Of a stretch of DNA of 64,000 nt, positions 54,659 through 60,513 are shown in pieces. A program made the position numbers and the translations under genes. Source of the DNA: Acidobacteriota bacterium (GTDB taxonomy: Bacteria; Acidobacteriota; UBA890; WLXD01); NCBI GenBank assembly GCA_965205505.1, contig CBDBHB010000009.1:256001-320000 (forward strand), read 5' to 3'. Every line of letters starts with the position of its first letter. Within the stretch, counting starts at the first letter, position 1. The notes below the pieces were generated by a model. It did no database searches. It was given only the letters and a program-made list of their open reading frames with translations, and was not told the DNA's origin.

Positions 54659-55918
54659 TGACCTGACCCCACGGTTAGTACCACGTCTTATCTCAGTAAC
54701 TCGGTGCTGACAAGGGGTTGTTGAGGCCGGCGAAGCGGAGCGTAGCCGGCTTCAACAACAGCGCCTCCGGGGCCGGTGGTCGGTAGCCCAACGAGCTGTG
54801 CGGTCGCATGCGGTTGTACTGCTGCCTCCATCTCTCGATCAGAACCTTTGCCTCCTTGAGCGTGTAGAAGATCTCGCCGTTGAGCAGCTCGTCTCGGAGC
54901 TTGCCGTTGAAGCTCTCCACGTAGCCGTTCTCCCACGGCGAGCCCGGCTCGATGAACAGCGTGCCCACACCGAGCCTACCGAGCCAGTCGCGAACCGCCT
55001 CGGCGGTGAACTCCGGTCCGTTATCGGACCGGATGTGCTCAGGTATGCCCCGGTGCACGAACAACCACCCGAGCCGCTCGAGCACGTCCTCACAGTTGAG
55101 CTTCCGTGCCACGTCGATCGCCAGGCTTTCTCGTGTGTACTCATCGACGATCGTCAGCAGCCTCATAGCCCGACCCTCGTGCGTCCGGTGATGAACGAAG
55201 TCATACGCCCAGACGTGATCTTTGCGCTGTGGTCGCAGCCGGATGCACGAGCCATCGCTGAGCCACAGCCGGGCTCGTTTGGGCTGCTTTGTCGGTACTT
55301 TCAGCCCCTCACGCCTCCAGATACGCTGCACTCGTTTGTGGTTCACCCACCAGCCCTCCATACGCAACAACGCCGTCACTCGCCGATACCCGTAGCGCCC
55401 GTATTGTCGGGCTAGATCCACGATCCGCTCCGTCAACATCTGCTCATCGCCCGGTTCTCTTGGCATGTACCTGTGTGTCGTGCGTGGTTGTTTCAGTACC
55501 CGGCACGCCCGCCTCTCGGAGACGCCCAGCCGCCCCTGTACATGCGCCACCGCCTCGCGCCGTCGAGCTGGGCTCAGAAGTTTCCCTCCGCGACTTCCTT
55601 CAGGATCGACAGGTCGAGCTCTTTCTCCGCCACCAGTTTCTTGAGCCGGGCGTTTTCTTTCTCCAGCTGCTTGAGCCTTCTGGCCTGGTTGACCTTCAGC
55701 CCCCCGTACTCCCGCCGCCACCGATAGTAGGTGTGCTCGGTGATCGCTAGCTTGCGGCAGGCATCCTTGACCGTCCCGCCTTGCGCCAGCTCCACTTCAG
55801 CCTCCCGGAGCTTGCGTACGATCTGCTCGGCGCTGTGCCTCTTCGTCGGCATTCTGACCTCCCCTTTTCGACCCAGATCGTGAGATTACCTCTGGATCCG
55901 TTTTGGGGGGTCAGGTCA
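54659..55918 (-). mobile_element. IS407-group element, complete, 1260 bp (copy 2)
   Basis: Same ends and identical translated ORFs as 41782-43041. Confidence 0.95.
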
Positions 55919-56883
55919 GAGGAAGGGCGGGTGAGGACGAGCCCGGAGGGGCTGGCGAGGCGGTTCGGGTGCGAGGAGCCCGCTCGAGTAGTGCTGGAGG
56001 TTGGAACGCACTCGCCGTGGATGAGTGAGCAGTTGAAGCAACTGGGTCATGAGGTGCTGGTGGCTAACCCGAGGCGGCTGAAGCTGATCTATGGCGAGCA
56101 CGACAAGACCGACCGGTTGGATGCCGAGCACCTGGCACGAGTGGGCAGAATGGACCCAAAGCTGCTTAAGACGGTGCAGCATCGAGGCAGACAAGCGCGA
56201 GCGGATCTAGCCGTGATTCGGAGCCGAGATGCTCTGGTAAAGAGCCCACGCAGTTGGTGAGCCATGTGCGTGGTGCGGTCAAGTCGGCCGGTTGTCGTAT
56301 TCCCAGGTGCTCGACGCCGGCGTTCGCGCGCACCGCGCCAGAGCACATACCGGAGCGGCTCAAGGGAGCGCTCGAGCCGGTGCTTGAAACGATCGCCATG
56401 CTGACGGGCAACATCCAGCAATACGAGCGTCAGATCGTGCAGCTGTGCCAGGGGCGATACCCGGAGACACAGCAGCTCCAGCAAGTGGCCGGGGTCGGAG
56501 CTCTGACCGCACTGGCGTATGTGCTGACGCTCGAGGAGCCGGAGCGGTTCAATACCTCCAGAGCCGTGGGCCCGTACCTGGGACTGAGACCGAAGAAACG
56601 GCAGTCGGGGGACAAGGACCCTGCGCTACGAATAACCAAGGCGGGCGACAAAATGCTCCGACGCCTGTTGGTGGGCTCGGCGCATTACATCCTGGGCCCC
56701 TTCGGGCCCGATACTGAGCTCAGACGCTGGGGGCTCAAGCTGGCCGGACGCGGTGGTCCTCATGGCAACAAAAAGGCAGCAGTTGCTGTCGCCCGTAAGC
56801 TCGCCGTTGTGCTGCACCGACTGTGGCTGAGTGGAGACGAGTACGAACCGTTGCGCGCACCTGTAGAGGTTTCAGCAGCATGA
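55919..56883 (+). pseudogene. IS110-family (IS1111-type) DEDD recombinase, 5'-truncated and frameshifted near 56245
   Basis: VVLEVG, KTDRLDAEHLA, GVG.LTA, YLGLRP..RQSG, AVARKL. Confidence 0.92.
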
Positions 56884-57145
56884 ACTAACCCGCAACCAGG
56901 AGGTCGGTAGGGCGACGCGACCCAACGGTTATCGATCTGACCGCCCGGTCCGGGCGACTGCGAAGGTCACTACGAGCTTCGAGCTCGGCAGCTAGATTGC
57001 AGCGCCTCGAATCGGGACGGACCCCAGAATGCACCGGACGACCTGAATCCTCGTCCACCAGAGTGCGAATAGGAGCATGGCGTGCAGATCGATTCTTCGC
57101 TGGGCACCACATTGCCCTTGACCGAACTAGGCCTTCTCATAGAAG
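56884..57145 (+). ncRNA. IS1111-type 3' non-coding end encoding a putative bridge/seekRNA
   Basis: About 260-nt non-coding tail with a stem/guide/hairpin/guide/stem module at 56958-57002, a TTGAC -35-like box and an end at CATAGAAG. Confidence 0.7.
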
Positions 57146-57589
57146 TGGCCTGTAACAGATGATCGTCGCATATCGCAGATGGGATTTGCGGGTGAGATCA
57201 AGGCGCGGCGAGGATGTCGATGCTAGCAGGCCGTGATGGAAGTGTGGTGGGTCTGGCAAGTGGGACTCACGGGCTAGGGCAAGGATCGACGATGAGGCGA
57301 TGCTGGAGCCATCGTCGAGGAGGAGAGACGCCGCCATCGCCCGTGACTCCCACTTGCCCTACGGGTTACCCATCACACTTCCATCACGACCTGCTGGGGC
57401 ATCGTCGACGAGGCGCAACGCCGATATCGCCCGCAACTGCCCATCTGTCCGGAGGATGGCGGCGAAATCGGCCCGTCTGCGGCGTTGCTCCTCCTCCAAG
57501 ATGGGCAAACATCGTCTCGTCGTCGCGCCTGGCATCCGGACCCATTTCGCCACCACGATAAGCAACGATCATCTGTTACCGGTCACTAG
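57144..57589. repeat. Palindromic MITE/REP-like element (outer)
   Basis: TIRs AGTGGCCTGTAACAGATGATCGT / ACGATCATCTGTTACCGGTCACT(AG). Confidence 0.85.
57223..57397. repeat. Palindromic MITE nested in the outer element
   Basis: About 50-bp arms CTAGCAGGCCGTGATGGAAGTGTG...GGCAAGTGGGACTCACGGGC and the inverted counterpart at 57339-57397. Confidence 0.85.
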
Positions 57590-60381
57590 AACGTGCGGTC
57601 GAACCACTCGTCCTTCAGCACCGTGACGTCGCCGGTGAGCTCCTGCCCGTCGACGAGTAGCCTTACCGTGTACGCGCCGTGCTTGGCGCGGATGTGCTTG
57701 AAATCCCGCTCGCGCCATTCCGGCAGCGTGTGCACCCAGACGTTCAACGGTCGGCCGTAGATGCTCACCTCGCTGTCGGCGGCGGCAAAGTGATCCGTGC
57801 CGTCGTAGTAATCGAAGTATTCCTCCTCCGAGCGCACTCCGCGGTTCCACTCCTCCCAGTCGCGCTTTTCCTCCTCGGTTCGGGGGATTCGCTCGGTCAG
57901 GTACCACTCGACGAAGTTCAATCCTTCCTCGCCGGAACCGCGGTACTCATTGACCAGCGTCGTGCCGCGGTAGATCTGCACCGTGACCGGGCCCGAGGCG
58001 GGCTGGCGCAGCGTGTAGTGCACGACGGCTCCCTTCGGCGCGTTCTCGCCCTCGTAGTTTTGATAGATGGAAGCGACCTGAGTCTGGCGGGCAGAGATCC
58101 ACAACACCTGAGGCGCCACATCGAACAGGTGCACGTCTTCGGCCAGGGTCTGGCGCGTTATCTCCTGCAGTGGCGAGATGTCGGCGATCCAGAAGCTTCG
58201 TCCGTAGGTGCCCACAACCAGGTCGTTGTCGCGCGGATGGATCACCAGGTCGTGGATCGGCACGTTCGGCATGTTGTTGCGCAACGAGGACCAGGAGTTG
58301 CCGCCATCGAATGAGACATAGATGCCCTTGGCGGTGCCCACGAACAGCAGGTCGGGGTTGCGGTGATCCTCGCGAATCACGTTGACTGGCTCGTCGGCCG
58401 GCAAACCGCCGCTGATCGAGCGCCAGGTCTCCCCGAAATCGTCGGTCCGGTAAACGTACGGTCGTAGGTCGCGACGATCCCGGCGACCACCGCTGGCGGT
58501 CACGTACGCCCTGCCGGCTGCGTGATTCGATGCCTCCAGGCGGGTGACGTTGTAGTTGTGCCAATCGGGGATCGCGTTGCTGGCACGCTGCCAGCTCGCG
58601 CCATCGTCGCGAGTCACCCAGACGTTGCCGTTGTCGGTTCCGGCCCAGATGACGCCTTGCTGCACCGGCGACTCATCGAGTGTGCTGATCGTGCCGTTGA
58701 CGCGGCGCTCGAACACTGCGCCGCCGTCCTCCGACAGGTCAGGGCTGATCTCCGCCCAGGCCGCGCCGCGGAACGGCGAGCGCAGCAGCACGTTGGCTCC
58801 GTGGTAGATCACATCAGGGTTGTGCGGCGAGATCAGGATCGGTGCGATGAAGTTGAAGCGCACTCCCTCGGCACGGTAGCGGATTCGGGTGCGCACGCCG
58901 GTGCGCTGGTCGTTGCGCGAGATGCTGCCGTTCTGCGACTCCACATAGAGCCAGCGATTGTCGGACGGGTCGATCTGGGCGTAGGAGCCGTCGGCGCCGC
59001 CGACGTGTTCCCAGTCCTCGAAGCGAATCGGCCATCGTCCCCGCTTGGTGCTCGGGCCACGCCAGGTGCCGAAGTCCTGCATGCCGCCGTAGACGTTGTA
59101 TGGCCGCGCCATGTCCACGCCGACGGCTTCGAGCTGCCCGAGCGGCAGGTTGTCGGGGTGGTACCAGGTGTCGCCGTTGGAATAGGAGATCGCCAGGCCA
59201 TAGTCGTAGCCCAGAATGATGTGGTCGCTGTTGGTCGGGTTGATCCACATGGCCTGGTTGTCGCCAGCGAAGCGGATCATCTTCTGCCAGGTGCGTCCGC
59301 CGTCCGGCGTGCCTTGCACGCCCGTGTTGAGCACGTAGATCCGATCGGCGTCGCTCGGATCAATGCGGATCTGACCAAAGCGGGATGATCCGGTGAGCTC
59401 GTACTCATCGGGATCGGGTCCGATTGCGTCCCACGTAGCACCCGCATCGACGCTGCGCCAGGCGGTGTTGCGGTACCGATCGCGGCTGCTCCCATCCCAA
59501 TCCGGTCGCTGTACGAGGATGCAGGCGACCAGGATGTCCGGGTCGCTCAGATAAATATCGAGGCCGATCCGATCCATGCTTCTCGTCGGTAGCCCGCCCT
59601 CGAGCCGCGCCCAGCTGTTGCCGCCGTCGGTGGTCTTGTAGATGCCGCTGCCGCCGCCGTCGTTGCGGTCCCAGGCTGAGGCGTAAAGCACATCTGGATC
59701 GCGCGGGTCTATGATCAGATCCGCGGCGCCAACGTGATGGTCTTCGTGGCGCAGCGCCAGCGAGCGCACCCAAGTGGCACCGCCGTCGGTGCTCCGGAAG
59801 ACGCCCTTCTCCGCGCTATCGGTCACCCAGTTGCCGGCCGCCGCGACGTACAGCGTGTCCGGGTCGTCAGGGTGGACGCGGATACGCGTGATGTAGAGCG
59901 AATCGTCGAGCCCTCGATAGCTCCAGGTGGCGCCGCCATCGCCGCTGCGGAAGATCCCTTCTCCCCAGTACGAACCGTTGCCGGTGCCGACGTAGAGCAC
60001 CTCCGGGTCGGAGTGGGCCACCGCGACGTCGCCGATCGAGTTGATCGGCACATCGTCGAAGATCGGCTTCCAGGTGATGCCGGCGTCGGTGGTCTTCCAC
60101 AGTCCGCCGGTCGAAGCCGCGGCGTAGAACGTGAACGGCTGTCTTGCCGGATCCGGCGCGCCGATGTCCATGATGCGGCCGCCTTGCTTGGTGCCGCCAA
60201 TGGAGCGGAAGTGGATGCGGTCAAGGATCGAGCGTGGAACGCTCAGCGTTGCGCCAGAATCCTGCTGACCGAGCTGCGGTACCGCATCGGCGCGCCTCGA
60301 CAAGAGTGGCACGGCGGCGACAACCAGCGTAGCGATAGCCAGCGCGGATACGAGGCGGCTTTGTCCGAATGCACGGGACAT
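57586..60381 (-). CDS. VPS10/BNR-repeat beta-propeller glycosyl-hydrolase-like protein
   Basis: Many S/T-x-D-x-G-x-T/S-W Asp boxes; GGMQDFG; GTYGRS; signal peptide. Confidence 0.93.
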   Translation of the reverse strand: MSRAFGQSRLVSALAIATLVVAAVPLLSRRADAVPQLGQQDSGATLSVPRSILDRIHFRSIGGTKQGGRIMDIGAPDPARQPFTFYAAASTGGLWKTTDAGITWKPIFDDVPINSIGDVAVAHSDPEVLYVGTGNGSYWGEGIFRSGDGGATWSYRGLDDSLYITRIRVHPDDPDTLYVAAAGNWVTDSAEKGVFRSTDGGATWVRSLALRHEDHHVGAADLIIDPRDPDVLYASAWDRNDGGGSGIYKTTDGGNSWARLEGGLPTRSMDRIGLDIYLSDPDILVACILVQRPDWDGSSRDRYRNTAWRSVDAGATWDAIGPDPDEYELTGSSRFGQIRIDPSDADRIYVLNTGVQGTPDGGRTWQKMIRFAGDNQAMWINPTNSDHIILGYDYGLAISYSNGDTWYHPDNLPLGQLEAVGVDMARPYNVYGGMQDFGTWRGPSTKRGRWPIRFEDWEHVGGADGSYAQIDPSDNRWLYVESQNGSISRNDQRTGVRTRIRYRAEGVRFNFIAPILISPHNPDVIYHGANVLLRSPFRGAAWAEISPDLSEDGGAVFERRVNGTISTLDESPVQQGVIWAGTDNGNVWVTRDDGASWQRASNAIPDWHNYNVTRLEASNHAAGRAYVTASGGRRDRRDLRPYVYRTDDFGETWRSISGGLPADEPVNVIREDHRNPDLLFVGTAKGIYVSFDGGNSWSSLRNNMPNVPIHDLVIHPRDNDLVVGTYGRSFWIADISPLQEITRQTLAEDVHLFDVAPQVLWISARQTQVASIYQNYEGENAPKGAVVHYTLRQPASGPVTVQIYRGTTLVNEYRGSGEEGLNFVEWYLTERIPRTEEEKRDWEEWNRGVRSEEEYFDYYDGTDHFAAADSEVSIYGRPLNVWVHTLPEWRERDFKHIRAKHGAYTVRLLVDGQELTGDVTVLKDEWFDRTF

Positions 60382-60513
60382 CAGAGGTTGCTCCTGCGGC
60401 GAAAGGCACGACTGGACGGGCACCGCGAGCGAGTGTATACAATATTCAAAACACAAAGAAGGGAAGCTAGGCGCGCGGCTCCGGCTGTGGCTCAGCCAAT
60501 CGTAGACAGGCCA

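What the first reader, a model, noticed from the sequence alone, without database searches (positions are those of the whole stretch)
56884..57151. IS1111-type bridge/seekRNA with readable guides aimed at a MITE terminus
Seen: outer stem CTGCGA(56958)/TTGCAG(56997) encloses AGGTCACTA (56964-72), hairpin CGAGC/GCTCG, and GCAGCTAG (56988-95). The reverse complement of the first guide, TAGTGACCT, matches the actual junction AGTGGCCT (57144-51) with one G:U wobble. It also matches the far MITE end CTAGTGACC. The two guides overlap at TAG, predicting the target GCAGCTAGTGACCT with an AG core. ATAGGAG (57069) mirrors the IS end ATAGAAG, as a donor guide would. Known: IS110/IS1111 recombinases use such bipartite guide loops. 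Inference: an RNA-guided element programmed against a non-autonomous repeat family. The recombinase here is broken and the left flank is lost.
Basis: partly seen in the sequence, partly recalled or inferred. Interest (0 to 1): 0.85.

Follow-up and report, generated by a model that had tools for sequence, protein, structure and literature searches.

The report
RNA-guided insertion sequence targeting MITE ends
This is a dead copy of an IS1111-type jumping gene whose built-in guide RNA is complementary to the tip of a small repeat element, where it usually lands; it is a clear example of a mechanism described in 2024, not a new one.

Summary
Window 55919-57145 is the 3' 1228 bp of a 1406-bp IS1111-family insertion sequence. 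An IS3-family element cuts it off at the 5' end, and a 1-nt deletion shifts its frame.

The own genome holds 31 right ends and 27 full copies, 10 with an intact 348-aa DEDD transposase. All 31 right ends abut TGGCCT (30) or TGACCT (1). Of the 27 left ends, 26 abut CTAG and 1 TTAG. So the target is CT-AG-TG(G/A)CCT. It occurs uninterrupted 111 times, mostly as the terminus of a ~274-bp MITE that is spread through the genus.

The 3' non-coding region carries AGGUCACUA, which complements the top strand with one U:G wobble, and GCAGCUAG, which matches the left flank plus core. They sit on the two sides of an internal loop, in the order published for IS1111 seekRNAs.

Among 80 homologous loci at 52-62% protein identity, both guides covary with their own flanks. 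The longest exact match averages 7.3 against 3.3 permuted, and 6.1 against 3.4. The donor-side motif covaries with the element end.

CTAGTGTCCT sites are never occupied (0 against 87 empty), whereas G/A sites are (31 against 111; p=1e-7).

IS1111 itself is already known to target a MITE.

The parts
54659..55918 (-). IS3-family insertion sequence (orfA 55574-55852, orfB 54693-55721). It truncates the IS1111-type copy. It is context, not part of the guided element.
   Evidence: Pfam HTH_Tnp_1 and rve/rve_3. About 20 near-identical copies of ~1260 bp in the own genome; boundaries from their common extent.
55919..57145 (+). 5'-truncated copy (element positions 179-1406) of a 1406-bp IS1111-family insertion sequence.
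   Evidence: blastn to a full copy: 99.9% over 1228 nt. 31 right ends and 27 full copies in the own genome.
55922..56883 (+). Broken transposase gene. The N-terminus, including the first DEDD aspartate, is missing. A frameshift comes from a 1-nt deletion between 56246 and 56247.
   Evidence: PF01548 in 55922-56260 and PF02371 in 56254-56883. Indel located. NF033542 scores 202.8 bits against a cut-off of 140.
56884..57145 (+). 3' non-coding region, 262 nt, that encodes the bridge/seekRNA and the right end.
   Evidence: The stop codon ends at 56883. In the full element tnp occupies positions 98-1144 of 1406.
56921..56946 (+). 5' strand of the long-range closing helix (P0) of the RNA domain.
   Evidence: Duplex energy with 57076-57105 is -29.7 kcal/mol. 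Across 57 loci the mean is -23.7, against -15.0 +/- 0.5 for permuted partners (minimum -16.7).
56951..56963 (+). 5' strand of the stem (P1) that closes the target-binding loop.
   Evidence: RNAalifold on 53 sequences predicts 9 pairs. Covariation is seen, for example column pair 30/109 with UA 22, CG 21, UG 9.
56964..56972 (+). Guide 1 (AGGUCACUA). It complements the top strand T-AG-TGGCCT, that is core plus right flank, with one rU:dG wobble. It is perfect for TGACCT.
   Evidence: Sequence. Identical in all 31 own copies. Covaries with the right flank in 49 non-redundant homologs: 7.31 against 3.27.
56973..56987 (+). Inner hairpin that separates the two target guides.
   Evidence: Folds at -4.4 kcal/mol, z -3.6. 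A hairpin of at least 4 bp is present in 57 of 61 distinct homolog loops although the sequences differ.
56988..56995 (+). Guide 2 (GCAGCUAG). It has the same sense as left flank plus core, so it pairs with the bottom strand.
   Evidence: Sequence. Covaries with the left flank in 45 non-redundant homologs: 6.09 against 3.36.
56997..57007 (+). 3' strand of stem P1.
57019..57035 (+). 5' side of the donor-binding module. CCCAG (57023-27) is the candidate guide for the left-end extension. GCAC (57031-34) is a stem strand.
   Evidence: Pairing with the 5-nt left-end extension is 3.92 of 5 across 37 pairs, against 3.29 +/- 0.09 permuted; 0 of 2000 permutations reached it. In the own element it is only 3 of 5.
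57036..57056 (+). Hairpin of the donor module.
   Evidence: -8.0 kcal/mol. A hairpin of at least 4 bp is present in 60 of 61 homologs.
57060..57076 (+). 3' side of the donor module. GUGC (57063-66) pairs with GCAC. AUAGGAG (57069-75) has the same sense as the right end ATAGAAG.
   Evidence: The GCAC/GUGC pairs are invariant in 53 sequences. Motif against right end: 46 of 50 non-redundant loci identical (ATGGAAG 36, ATAGAAG 10), no crossed combination, and 4 differ by one letter.
57076..57105 (+). 3' strand of the closing helix P0.
57118..57123 (+). TTGACC. A TTGAC motif stands near the right end in most homologs seen. It may be the -35 of a promoter completed at the circle junction (inference only).
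   Evidence: Seen by eye in the homologs. Junction promoters are described in PMC11187229 (section 4) and PMC12288879 (passages). Not tested.
57130..57140 (+). Right subterminal inverted repeat GGCCTTCTCAT. Its partner ATGAGAAGGCC lies at the left end of full copies, which this copy lacks.
57141..57145 (+). Right terminal extension AGA plus the core dinucleotide AG that is shared with the target.
   Evidence: Left junction ..CT-AG|ATGAG and right junction ..AGA-AG|TGGCCT in full copies. Uninterrupted sites read CTAGTGGCCT.
57146..57151 (+). Right half of the target (TGGCCT), which is also the first bases of the MITE.
   Evidence: 31 of 31 right flanks are TG(G/A)CCT.
57146..57589 (.). MITE copy of ~440 bp plus the terminal CTAG at 57586-89. 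Its near terminus is the occupied target. Its far terminus reads CTAGTGACCG on the minus strand.
   Evidence: Inverted termini. The family has 161 ends in the genome with a modal length of 274 bp. The family is present in the other genomes of the genus.

Best explanation
The region is the right-hand part of an IS1111-family insertion sequence.

How a full copy works. A 348-aa DEDD/serine recombinase is made together with a structured RNA of about 185 nt from the 3' non-coding region. That RNA has two modules.

The first module is an internal loop with two guides. The 5' guide (AGGUCACUA) pairs with the top strand of the core AG plus the right target half TG(G/A)CCT. The 3' guide (GCAGCUAG) pairs with the bottom strand of the left half plus the core. 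The two guides overlap at the core.

The second module carries a same-sense copy of the right end (AUAGGAG for ATAGAAG) and a short complement of the left-end extension. It holds the joined ends of the excised circle.

Recombination at the shared AG puts the element, in one orientation and without target duplication, between CTAG and TGGCCT. That sequence is the outermost 10 bp of a MITE that was already abundant in this genus, so the element had many ready landing sites and multiplied to about 31 copies in this one genome.

Shown: the element's ends, its target, the guide complementarity, the covariation and the site discrimination.

Inferred: that the RNA is made, binds the recombinase and directs strand exchange. 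This rests on analogy with ISEc11, ISPa11, ISKpn4 and IS621.

The window's own copy cannot move by itself. It has no left end, and its recombinase gene is truncated and frameshifted.
For: Family features. Pfam PF01548 plus PF02371. NCBIfam 'IS110 family RNA-guided transposase', 202.8 bits against a cut-off of 140. 348 aa with the GLRPKKRQSG motif. An 11-bp subterminal inverted repeat with 7-bp left and 3-bp right extensions. A 262-nt non-coding region downstream of tnp. All of these match the IS1111 definition in PMC11187229 (sections 4 and 6).

Target. 31 of 31 right ends abut TGGCCT (30) or TGACCT (1). 26 of 27 left ends abut CTAG, 1 TTAG. CTAGTGGCCT occurs uninterrupted 109 times, against ~13.5 expected from base composition.

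Guides. Their order, top-strand complement 5' of bottom-strand complement with an overlap, is as published for IS1111 seekRNAs (PMC11187229 section 9). All 31 own copies carry the same guides.

Covariation.
- Guide 1 against right flank: mean longest exact match 7.31 in 49 non-redundant homolog loci, against 3.27 permuted (maximum of 1000 permutations 3.67). 32 of 49 reach 7 or more.
- Guide 2 against left flank: 6.09 in 45 loci, against 3.36 (maximum 3.86).
- Donor motif against right end: 46 of 50 identical, no crossed state.
- Left-end guide: 3.92 of 5 against 3.29.

Structure. The closing stem shows compensatory changes. Hairpins are kept in 57 of 61 and 60 of 61 loops. The outer helix averages -23.7 against -15.0 kcal/mol.

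Natural specificity test. For CTAGTGNCCT, empty sites are G 109, T 87, C 6, A 2, and occupied sites are G 30, A 1, T 0, C 0. Fisher p = 1.1e-7 for purine against T. This fits a guide U that accepts A or G (wobble) but not T.

Distribution. The MITE terminus is found in all 4 other genomes of the genus. The IS was found in 0 of those 4 at E<=1e-30.
Against: There is no direct evidence that the RNA exists or where it starts and ends. No Rfam family matched the non-coding region even at E<=10.

The main target pairs with a U:G wobble rather than perfectly.

Only 4-5 of the 8 nt of guide 2 are reflected in the own flanks.

The proposed left-end guide pairs at only 3 of 5 positions in this element.

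The donor motif differs from the end by one letter (G for A) in this element.

The donor-side covariation rests mainly on two sequence states, which may each be inherited once.

Homolog loci are related to one another, so permutation p-values overstate independence.

No clean orthologous empty site was recovered from the relative G004.
Confidence: 0.9

Rival explanations
1. Only the target loop is an RNA guide, a short seekRNA of roughly 70-100 nt. The element's own ends would then be recognised by the protein through the subterminal inverted repeats. On this reading the donor-side look-alikes (AUAGGAG, CCCAG) are conserved scaffold, not guides.
For: The donor motif has few states: ATGGAAG 36, ATAGAAG 10. 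The left-end pairing is weak, 3.92 of 5 against 3.29, and 3 of 5 in this element. PMC11187229 (sections 4 and 9) describes the abundant seekRNA as 70-100 nt and discusses only its target matches in the sections I read.
Against: Motif and right end change together with no crossed case in 50 loci. One locus seen by eye (L083) has ATGGCAG in both places. The left-end signal exceeded all 2000 permutations. The outer helix encloses both modules as one domain. PMC11208160 (passages on IS1111) predicts two-loop bridge RNAs in the right end of 93% of IS1111 elements.
Confidence: 0.15
2. Target choice is made by the protein, which reads the DNA sequence or the hairpin-prone structure of the MITE terminus. 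The complementarity in the non-coding region would be incidental or regulatory.
For: Many targets of this family are palindromic repeats (REP, attC, transposon ends). Here too, head-to-head MITE ends form the palindrome AGGCCACTAGTGGCCT.
Against: Five right flanks are not repeat termini yet keep the 10-mer. In 45-49 homolog lineages with unrelated targets, the loop sequences change with the flanks. Related members have been shown experimentally to need the RNA (PMC11187229 abstract and section 4).
Confidence: 0.04
3. TGGCCT (or the MITE) belongs to the mobile unit. The constant flank would then reflect a composite element that moves as a whole, not a target.
For: 20 of 31 right flanks continue as a repeat terminus, 14 A-type and 6 B-type.
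Against: CTAGTGGCCT stands uninterrupted 109 times, continuous with the same MITE sequences that follow occupied ends. After TGGCCT the right flanks diverge into at least four classes. The MITE occurs in four related genomes in which this IS was not found. Only 11 of 42 paired MITEs carry the IS, always at one end.
Confidence: 0.01

Closest known systems
IS1111-family elements with a characterised seekRNA (ISEc11, ISPa11, ISKpn4, ISPst6; Siddiquee et al. 2024, PMC11187229, sections 4, 6, 9 and 13 read)
   Same: DEDD transposase of 330-350 aa with GL-P----SG. Subterminal inverted repeats of 11-13 bp. Terminal extensions of 7 bp on the left and 3 bp on the right. A long non-coding region downstream of tnp. 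A top-strand complement 5' of a bottom-strand complement, overlapping in the target. One orientation, no target duplication. Targets are often repeated elements.
   Different: The protein is distant: the best tblastn identity to any plasmid-borne IS110-family gene is 36%. The target is different. Nothing is known about its RNA in vivo. The hosts are soil-type MAG lineages rather than Proteobacteria (record titles).
IS621 / ISCro4 bridge recombinases and bridge RNA (Durrant et al. 2024, PMC11208160, passages read; PDB 8wt6 and 9t56)
   Same: The logic of two guide modules, target and donor. The core dinucleotide is the same: AG here is CT on the other strand. The recombinase is a sequence relative: ISCro4 E 7.6e-9 and IS621 E 9.6e-8, matching over the C-terminal half.
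   Different: IS621 carries its bridge RNA upstream, in the left end, with guides in the reverse order relative to tnp, and has only very short subterminal repeats. Here the RNA is downstream and the repeats are 11 bp. That ISCro4 belongs to the IS1111 group is my recollection, not a tool result.
IS1111 of Coxiella burnetii inserting into QMITE2 (Wachter et al. 2018, PMC5896051, abstract and passages read)
   Same: An IS1111-type element whose copies sit almost all in one MITE family: 20 of 21 copies there. The MITE is older than the insertions.
   Different: There the site is a GTAG REP inside the MITE, 10-20 bp from one end. Here it is the outermost 10 bp, CTAG included. That paper read no guides.
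[quoted passage not shown]
   Same: An IS1111-family element aimed at the terminal inverted repeat of another mobile element.
   Different: The target is a large autonomous transposon, not a MITE. I did not read the paper itself.

Membership tests
IS1111 family (within ISfinder's IS110 family) | DEDD/RuvC-like N-terminal domain plus the PF02371 C-terminal domain | tested here: met
   PF01548 (E 5.9e-9) and PF02371 (E 3.3e-17) in the window's two frames. NF033542 202.8 bits against 140 for the intact protein. D9, E54, D92 and D95 are invariant in a 20-sequence alignment. Assigning these four as the DEDD residues is my inference.
IS1111 family (within ISfinder's IS110 family) | Transposase of 330-350 aa with the GL-P----S(T)G motif | tested here: met
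   348 aa; the sequence contains GLRPKKRQSG. G249, L250 and G258 are invariant, and S257 is at least 90% conserved. Criterion from PMC11187229 section 6.
IS1111 family (within ISfinder's IS110 family) | Subterminal inverted repeats of about 11-13 bp with asymmetric terminal extensions (7 bp left, 3 bp right) | tested here: met
   ATGAGAAGGCC and GGCCTTCTCAT, 11 bp. The extensions are AGATGAG on the left and AGA on the right if the shared AG is counted with the left end. Criterion from PMC11187229 section 4.
IS1111 family (within ISfinder's IS110 family) | The longer non-coding region lies downstream of tnp | tested here: met
   tnp occupies positions 98-1144 of 1406, leaving 97 nt upstream and 262 nt downstream.
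IS1111 family (within ISfinder's IS110 family) | Site- and orientation-specific insertion without target duplication | tested here: met
   31 of 31 right ends at TG(G/A)CCT. 26 of 27 left ends at CTAG. Empty sites read CTAGTGGCCT with a single AG.
IS1111 family (within ISfinder's IS110 family) | A seekRNA with the top-strand complement 5' of the bottom-strand complement, overlapping in the target | tested here: met
   56964-72 and 56988-95 overlap at TAG. Both covary with their flanks among homologs.
IS1111 family (within ISfinder's IS110 family) | The RNA is produced, binds the transposase and is required; a circular intermediate with abutted ends forms | not testable with these tools
   RNA-library contigs cover the element but cannot show transcripts, ends or joints.
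IS110 group proper (IS621-like bridge RNA) | Bridge RNA in the left end upstream of tnp; very short or no subterminal repeats | tested here: not met
   The structured guide RNA is downstream and the upstream region is only 97 nt. The subterminal repeats are 11 bp. So it works like a bridge RNA system but is not a member of the IS110 group.
Any curated Rfam RNA family | A match to a covariance model | tested here: not met
   No hit in 56884-57145 at E<=10, apart from one chance-level lncRNA hit (13.9 bits, E 6.6). The strong hits at 57176-57447 are plant miRNA models matching the MITE palindrome, far below their gathering scores.
MITE (the target repeat) | Short, many copies, terminal inverted repeats, no transposase gene, target-site duplication | tested here: inconclusive
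   161 termini, 42 paired copies, modal length 274 bp, inverted termini. The family is spread through the genus. No pair longer than 618 bp was found, so no autonomous partner was seen. Whether CTAG is a duplication or part of the repeat is unresolved: variant flanks are not concordant, for example TTAG/CTAG and CCAG/CTGG.

The most novel reading that the evidence does not exclude
Position +3 of the target, opposite the guide U, may act as a switch in a conflict between two mobile elements. MITE termini reading TGG or TGA are open to the IS, through rU:dG wobble or rU:dA pairing. Termini reading TGT are immune.

In the second repeat family (B), every one of the 6 CTAG-flanked G-termini is occupied, while all 22 T-termini are free. 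A-type G-termini are filled in only 18 of 83 cases.

The boldest reading is that insertion, or later gene conversion between IS copies, itself changes T to G at the junction. A related reading is that the T allele is spreading as an escape from the IS. Neither is excluded. The plainer reading, standing polymorphism plus a strict purine rule, is more likely, because the IS-free relative G004 also has 2 G against 6 T B-termini.
Probability: 0.08. Interest if true: 0.6.

Novelty: new member of a known kind. Interest (0 to 1): 0.32.

Why it matters
It adds nothing categorically new. It is, however, an unusually clean natural data set for RNA-guided recombinases of the IS1111 type.

One genome offers 31 insertions, 111 unused matching sites and 87 one-mismatch sites. 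Together they amount to a specificity experiment. They suggest that an rU:dG wobble is tolerated at target position +3 and that a pyrimidine there is not.

Across soil-type lineages, some 45-49 relatives share one RNA scaffold but carry different guides and targets. That is a ready catalogue of natural reprogramming in a clade with no characterised member.

It also shows a mobile element that lives on the landing sites made by an older, non-autonomous element.

Tried and rejected
Rfam scan of 55800-57700 at E<=10. Nothing in the non-coding region. The only sizeable hits are plant miRNA models on the MITE palindrome, far under their thresholds, and I rejected them as chance.

Single-sequence fold of 56884-57145. 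z = -2.2. The fold partly pairs the two guides with each other, so I did not use it as the structure.

RNA evidence. The look-up of sequencing runs found 5 RNA-library runs in 2 studies and 6 runs of unrecorded kind. Read laying placed X1, X2, X5 and X6 on a full copy. Contigs cover most of the element, but there were no joints and no starts or ends, and the output itself says this does not show transcription. So there is no verdict on expression or on a circle junction.

Orthologous empty sites. For the copy at C9:685112-686515, G004 has both flanks 2 nt apart, but its sequence at the join differs and lacks the target. For the copy at C6:103354-104759, G004 has unrelated DNA of ~327 bp between the flanks. 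One search returned mostly repeat hits and I did not pursue it. So no clean before-and-after pair was found, and the within-genome empty sites were used instead.

Whether CTAG is a MITE target duplication: not resolved.

Escape-allele idea. TGT against TGG A-type termini are 21/60 in G000, 7/30 in G004, 3/79 in G002 and 1/64 in G003. The IS-free G004 is also rich in TGT, so there is no support for selection by the IS.

Metagenome scan: 7 loci at 27-60% identity. No close relative, and the loci were not analysed further.

I did not ask for paper supplements. They may hold target logos or bridge-RNA predictions for relatives of this element.

Parsing failures. 7 of 80 homolog loci gave no anchors (L061, L065, L083, L090, L102, L108, L110) and are left out of all counts. 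Loci with identical guides were collapsed to one before the permutation tests.

A junction promoter (TTGACC plus a -10 across the joined ends) was only looked at by eye. The -10 candidates are poor, so it is not claimed.
Full report
**What is in the window.**
The stretch 55919-57145 (+) matches positions 179-1406 of a 1406-bp repeated element. The identity is 99.9%, and the only difference is one missing base between 56246 and 56247.

Its two reading frames carry the IS110-family domains PF01548 and PF02371.

To the left it abuts an IS3-family element at 54659-55918 on the minus strand, which has about 20 copies in the genome. Beyond that element the DNA is unrelated. So the first 178 bp of this copy and its left flank are gone.

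To the right, from 57146, lies a ~440-bp repeat with inverted termini, the MITE.

The far MITE end CTAGTGACC lies at 57581-89 on the minus strand.

**The element in its genome.**
The own assembly has 9 contigs and 5.98 Mb. It holds 32 matches to the window fragment at 98.7-100% identity.

Motif searches give 31 right ends and 27 left ends. All 27 left ends pair with a right end.

Ten copies keep a 348-aa open frame.

The ends are ATGAG-ATGAGAAGGCC... on the left and ...GGCCTTCTCAT-AGAAG on the right. That is an 11-bp subterminal inverted repeat. Its extensions are 7 bp (AGATGAG) and 3 bp (AGA) if the shared AG is counted once.

The gene occupies positions 98-1144. This leaves 97 nt upstream and 262 nt downstream.

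These are the defining features of the IS1111 family, as listed by Siddiquee et al. (PMC11187229, sections 4 and 6).

The intact protein passes NCBIfam's 'IS110 family RNA-guided transposase' model at 202.8 bits against 140. Its nearest solved relatives are ISCro4 (E 7.6e-9) and IS621 (E 9.6e-8). Its best identity to any plasmid-borne family member is 36%.

**The target.**
- All 31 right ends are followed by TGGCCT (30) or TGACCT (1).
- Of the 27 left ends, 26 are preceded by CTAG and 1 by TTAG.
- The left flank ends in AG and so does the element. The insertion is therefore CT-AG|element-AG|TGGCCT, with no duplication and always in the same orientation.
- The uninterrupted 10-mer CTAGTGGCCT occurs 109 times, against ~13.5 expected from composition. 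CTAGTGACCT occurs twice.
- Of the 111 empty sites, 62 continue as the full A-type MITE terminus and 11 as a short form.
- Of the 31 occupied sites, 14 are full A-type termini, 5 short A-type, 6 termini of a second repeat (B..GAGTCAG..) and 6 other. One of those 6 is an A-type terminus with a 1-nt insertion.

So the element recognises the 10-mer, and the MITE is simply where that 10-mer mostly lives.

The MITE family has 161 termini and 42 paired copies, with a modal length of 274 bp. In 11 of the 42 pairs one end carries the IS.

**The guides.**
In the 3' non-coding region a stem (56951-63 with 56997-57007) closes an internal loop.
- The loop's 5' strand is AGGUCACUA (56964-72).
- Its 3' strand is GCAGCUAG (56988-95).
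- A hairpin (56973-87) lies between them.

The first strand is the complement of the top strand T-AG-TGGCCT, with one U:G wobble, and is exact for TGACCT. The second has the sense of left flank plus core and so pairs with the bottom strand. They overlap at TAG.

This order, top-strand match first, and this overlap are what Siddiquee et al. report for ISEc11, ISPa11 and ISKpn4 (PMC11187229, section 9).

All 31 own copies carry identical guides.

**Test by covariation.**
An alignment of 20 homologous proteins retrieved 80 loci from named MAG records of many phyla, at 52-62% identity.

They share one RNA scaffold (alignment A2). The loop strands differ from lineage to lineage.

I left out 7 loci that could not be parsed and collapsed loci with identical guides. 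The results were:
- Reverse complement of the 5' loop strand against the locus's own right junction: mean longest exact match 7.31 nt in 49 loci, against 3.27 when flanks are permuted. The maximum of 1000 permutations was 3.67. 32 of 49 loci reach 7 or more.
- 3' loop strand against the locus's own left junction: 6.09 nt in 45 loci, against 3.36 (maximum 3.86).

The loci are related to one another, so these are not exact probabilities. The effect is nevertheless large, and it is visible locus by locus.

**Structure.**
RNAalifold recovers the closing stem with compensatory changes, for example one pair that is UA in 22 sequences, CG in 21 and UG in 9.

The variable hairpin between the guides forms at least 4 bp in 57 of 61 distinct loops. 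The hairpin of the second module does so in 60 of 61.

A long outer helix joins 56921-46 to 57076-57105. Across 57 loci its duplex energy averages -23.7 kcal/mol, against -15.0 +/- 0.5 for permuted partners.

The RNA domain is thus about 185 nt.

**The donor side.**
The second module has an invariant GCAC/GUGC stem. After it comes AUAGGAG (57069-75), which has the sense of the right end ATAGAAG.

Among 50 non-redundant loci the motif and the right end are identical in 46 (ATGGAAG 36, ATAGAAG 10). They are never crossed, and they differ by one letter in 4, this element among them.

On the 5' side, five bases (CCCAG here) tend to complement the 5-nt left-end extension. The score is 3.92 of 5 in 37 pairs against 3.29 +/- 0.09, and no permutation of 2000 reached it. 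In this element only 3 of 5 pair.

The left-end guide is plausible but weaker.

**A natural specificity experiment.**
For sites of the form CTAGTGNCCT, by the letter at N:

| N | empty | occupied |
|---|---|---|
| G | 109 | 30 |
| T | 87 | 0 |
| C | 6 | 0 |
| A | 2 | 1 |

Purine against T gives Fisher p = 1.1e-7. The guide base opposite N is U. The result fits A (Watson-Crick) and G (wobble) being accepted and T being rejected.

Left of CTAG the guide letters are only mildly enriched. At -6, A is found in 9 of 25 occupied against 12 of 111 empty. At -5, G is found in 9 of 25 against 21 of 111.

**History.**
The A-type MITE terminus is found in all 4 other genomes of the genus: 85, 73, 38 and 2 hits, against 102 in the own genome. 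It is almost absent outside the genus.

The transposase was found at E<=1e-30 in none of those 4.

The copies are nearly identical. The simplest history is a recent arrival of the IS in a genome already full of matching sites.

**An unexplained detail.**
For the B repeat, the CTAG-flanked termini without IS read TGT 22 times, TGC once and TGG never. All 6 termini with the IS read TGG. A-type TGG termini are filled in only 18 of 83 cases.

The IS-free relative G004 has 6 TGT and 2 TGG B-termini. So standing variation plus the purine rule explains most of it, but not the 6 of 6.

**Comparison with what is known.**
Seek/bridge RNAs downstream of tnp in IS1111 elements are published (PMC11187229; PMC11208160, passages on IS1111, which predict them in 93% of IS1111 elements).

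Targeting of repeated or mobile DNA is a family habit. Examples are REP, attC and Tn21 ends (reference titles only). For IS1111 itself the target is a MITE, with 20 of 21 copies in QMITE2 (PMC5896051, abstract and passages).

My searches for 'IS1111' + 'MITE' and for 'IS110 family' + 'MITE' + 'target' showed no other paper on this point among those listed.

The element here is therefore a new, distant member of a known kind. It has a new target, and its guides can be read directly from the sequence.

**What remains inferred.**
It remains inferred that the RNA is made, processed and bound, that a circle forms, and that the recombinase acts at the AG.

RNA-library contigs do cover the element, but they cannot show any of this.

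Noticed in passing
window 54659-55918 (-): IS3-family element (orfA/orfB, probably joined by frameshifting). It has about 20 near-identical copies in the genome. It replaces the first 178 bp of the IS1111-type copy. The DNA on its other side is unrelated, so a deletion or rearrangement followed, not a simple insertion.
   Followed up: partly
window 57586-57589 and ORF 57586-60456 (-): The CTAG at the far MITE end supplies the TAG stop codon of a 956-aa ORF. Another IS copy likewise sits on a CTAG that ends what looks like a coding region (left flank of the copy at C9:685112-686515).
   Followed up: no
window 57176-57447: The MITE has a long internal palindrome. It draws sub-threshold hits from plant miRNA models in Rfam on both strands (51.7 and 46 bits against a gathering score of 268).
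   Followed up: no
own genome, B-type repeat termini (e.g. C6:104760, C7:281733): All 6 B-type termini next to the IS read TGG. The 23 CTAG-flanked B-type termini without it read TGT (22) or TGC (1). A-type TGG termini are filled in only 18 of 83 cases.
   Followed up: partly
L129, L135, L136 (first ~230 nt after the gene): These homologs carry two target-loop modules in tandem. The two have similar but not identical guides.
   Followed up: no
own genome: C6 copies at 423091 / rc 10343, and 189958 / rc 511020: Pairs of IS copies share one flank but not the other. This suggests inversions or other rearrangements by recombination between copies.
   Followed up: no
own genome C9:2702237: One copy has three ATGAG repeats at its left end instead of two.
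   Followed up: no
L112 right junction: In this homolog the dinucleotide at the right junction reads TG while the left junction reads AG. The core may be mismatched or mutated.
   Followed up: no
own genome, e.g. C9 rc 1828568, C6:424766: MITE ends often stand head to head and form the perfect palindrome AGGCCACTAGTGGCCT. This offers the target in both orientations.
   Followed up: no
G011:C1:3908161-3911885 (L032, L038): A genome of the same order holds a 63-68% identical transposase split into two pieces about 2.7 kb apart. It may be another interrupted copy.
   Followed up: no
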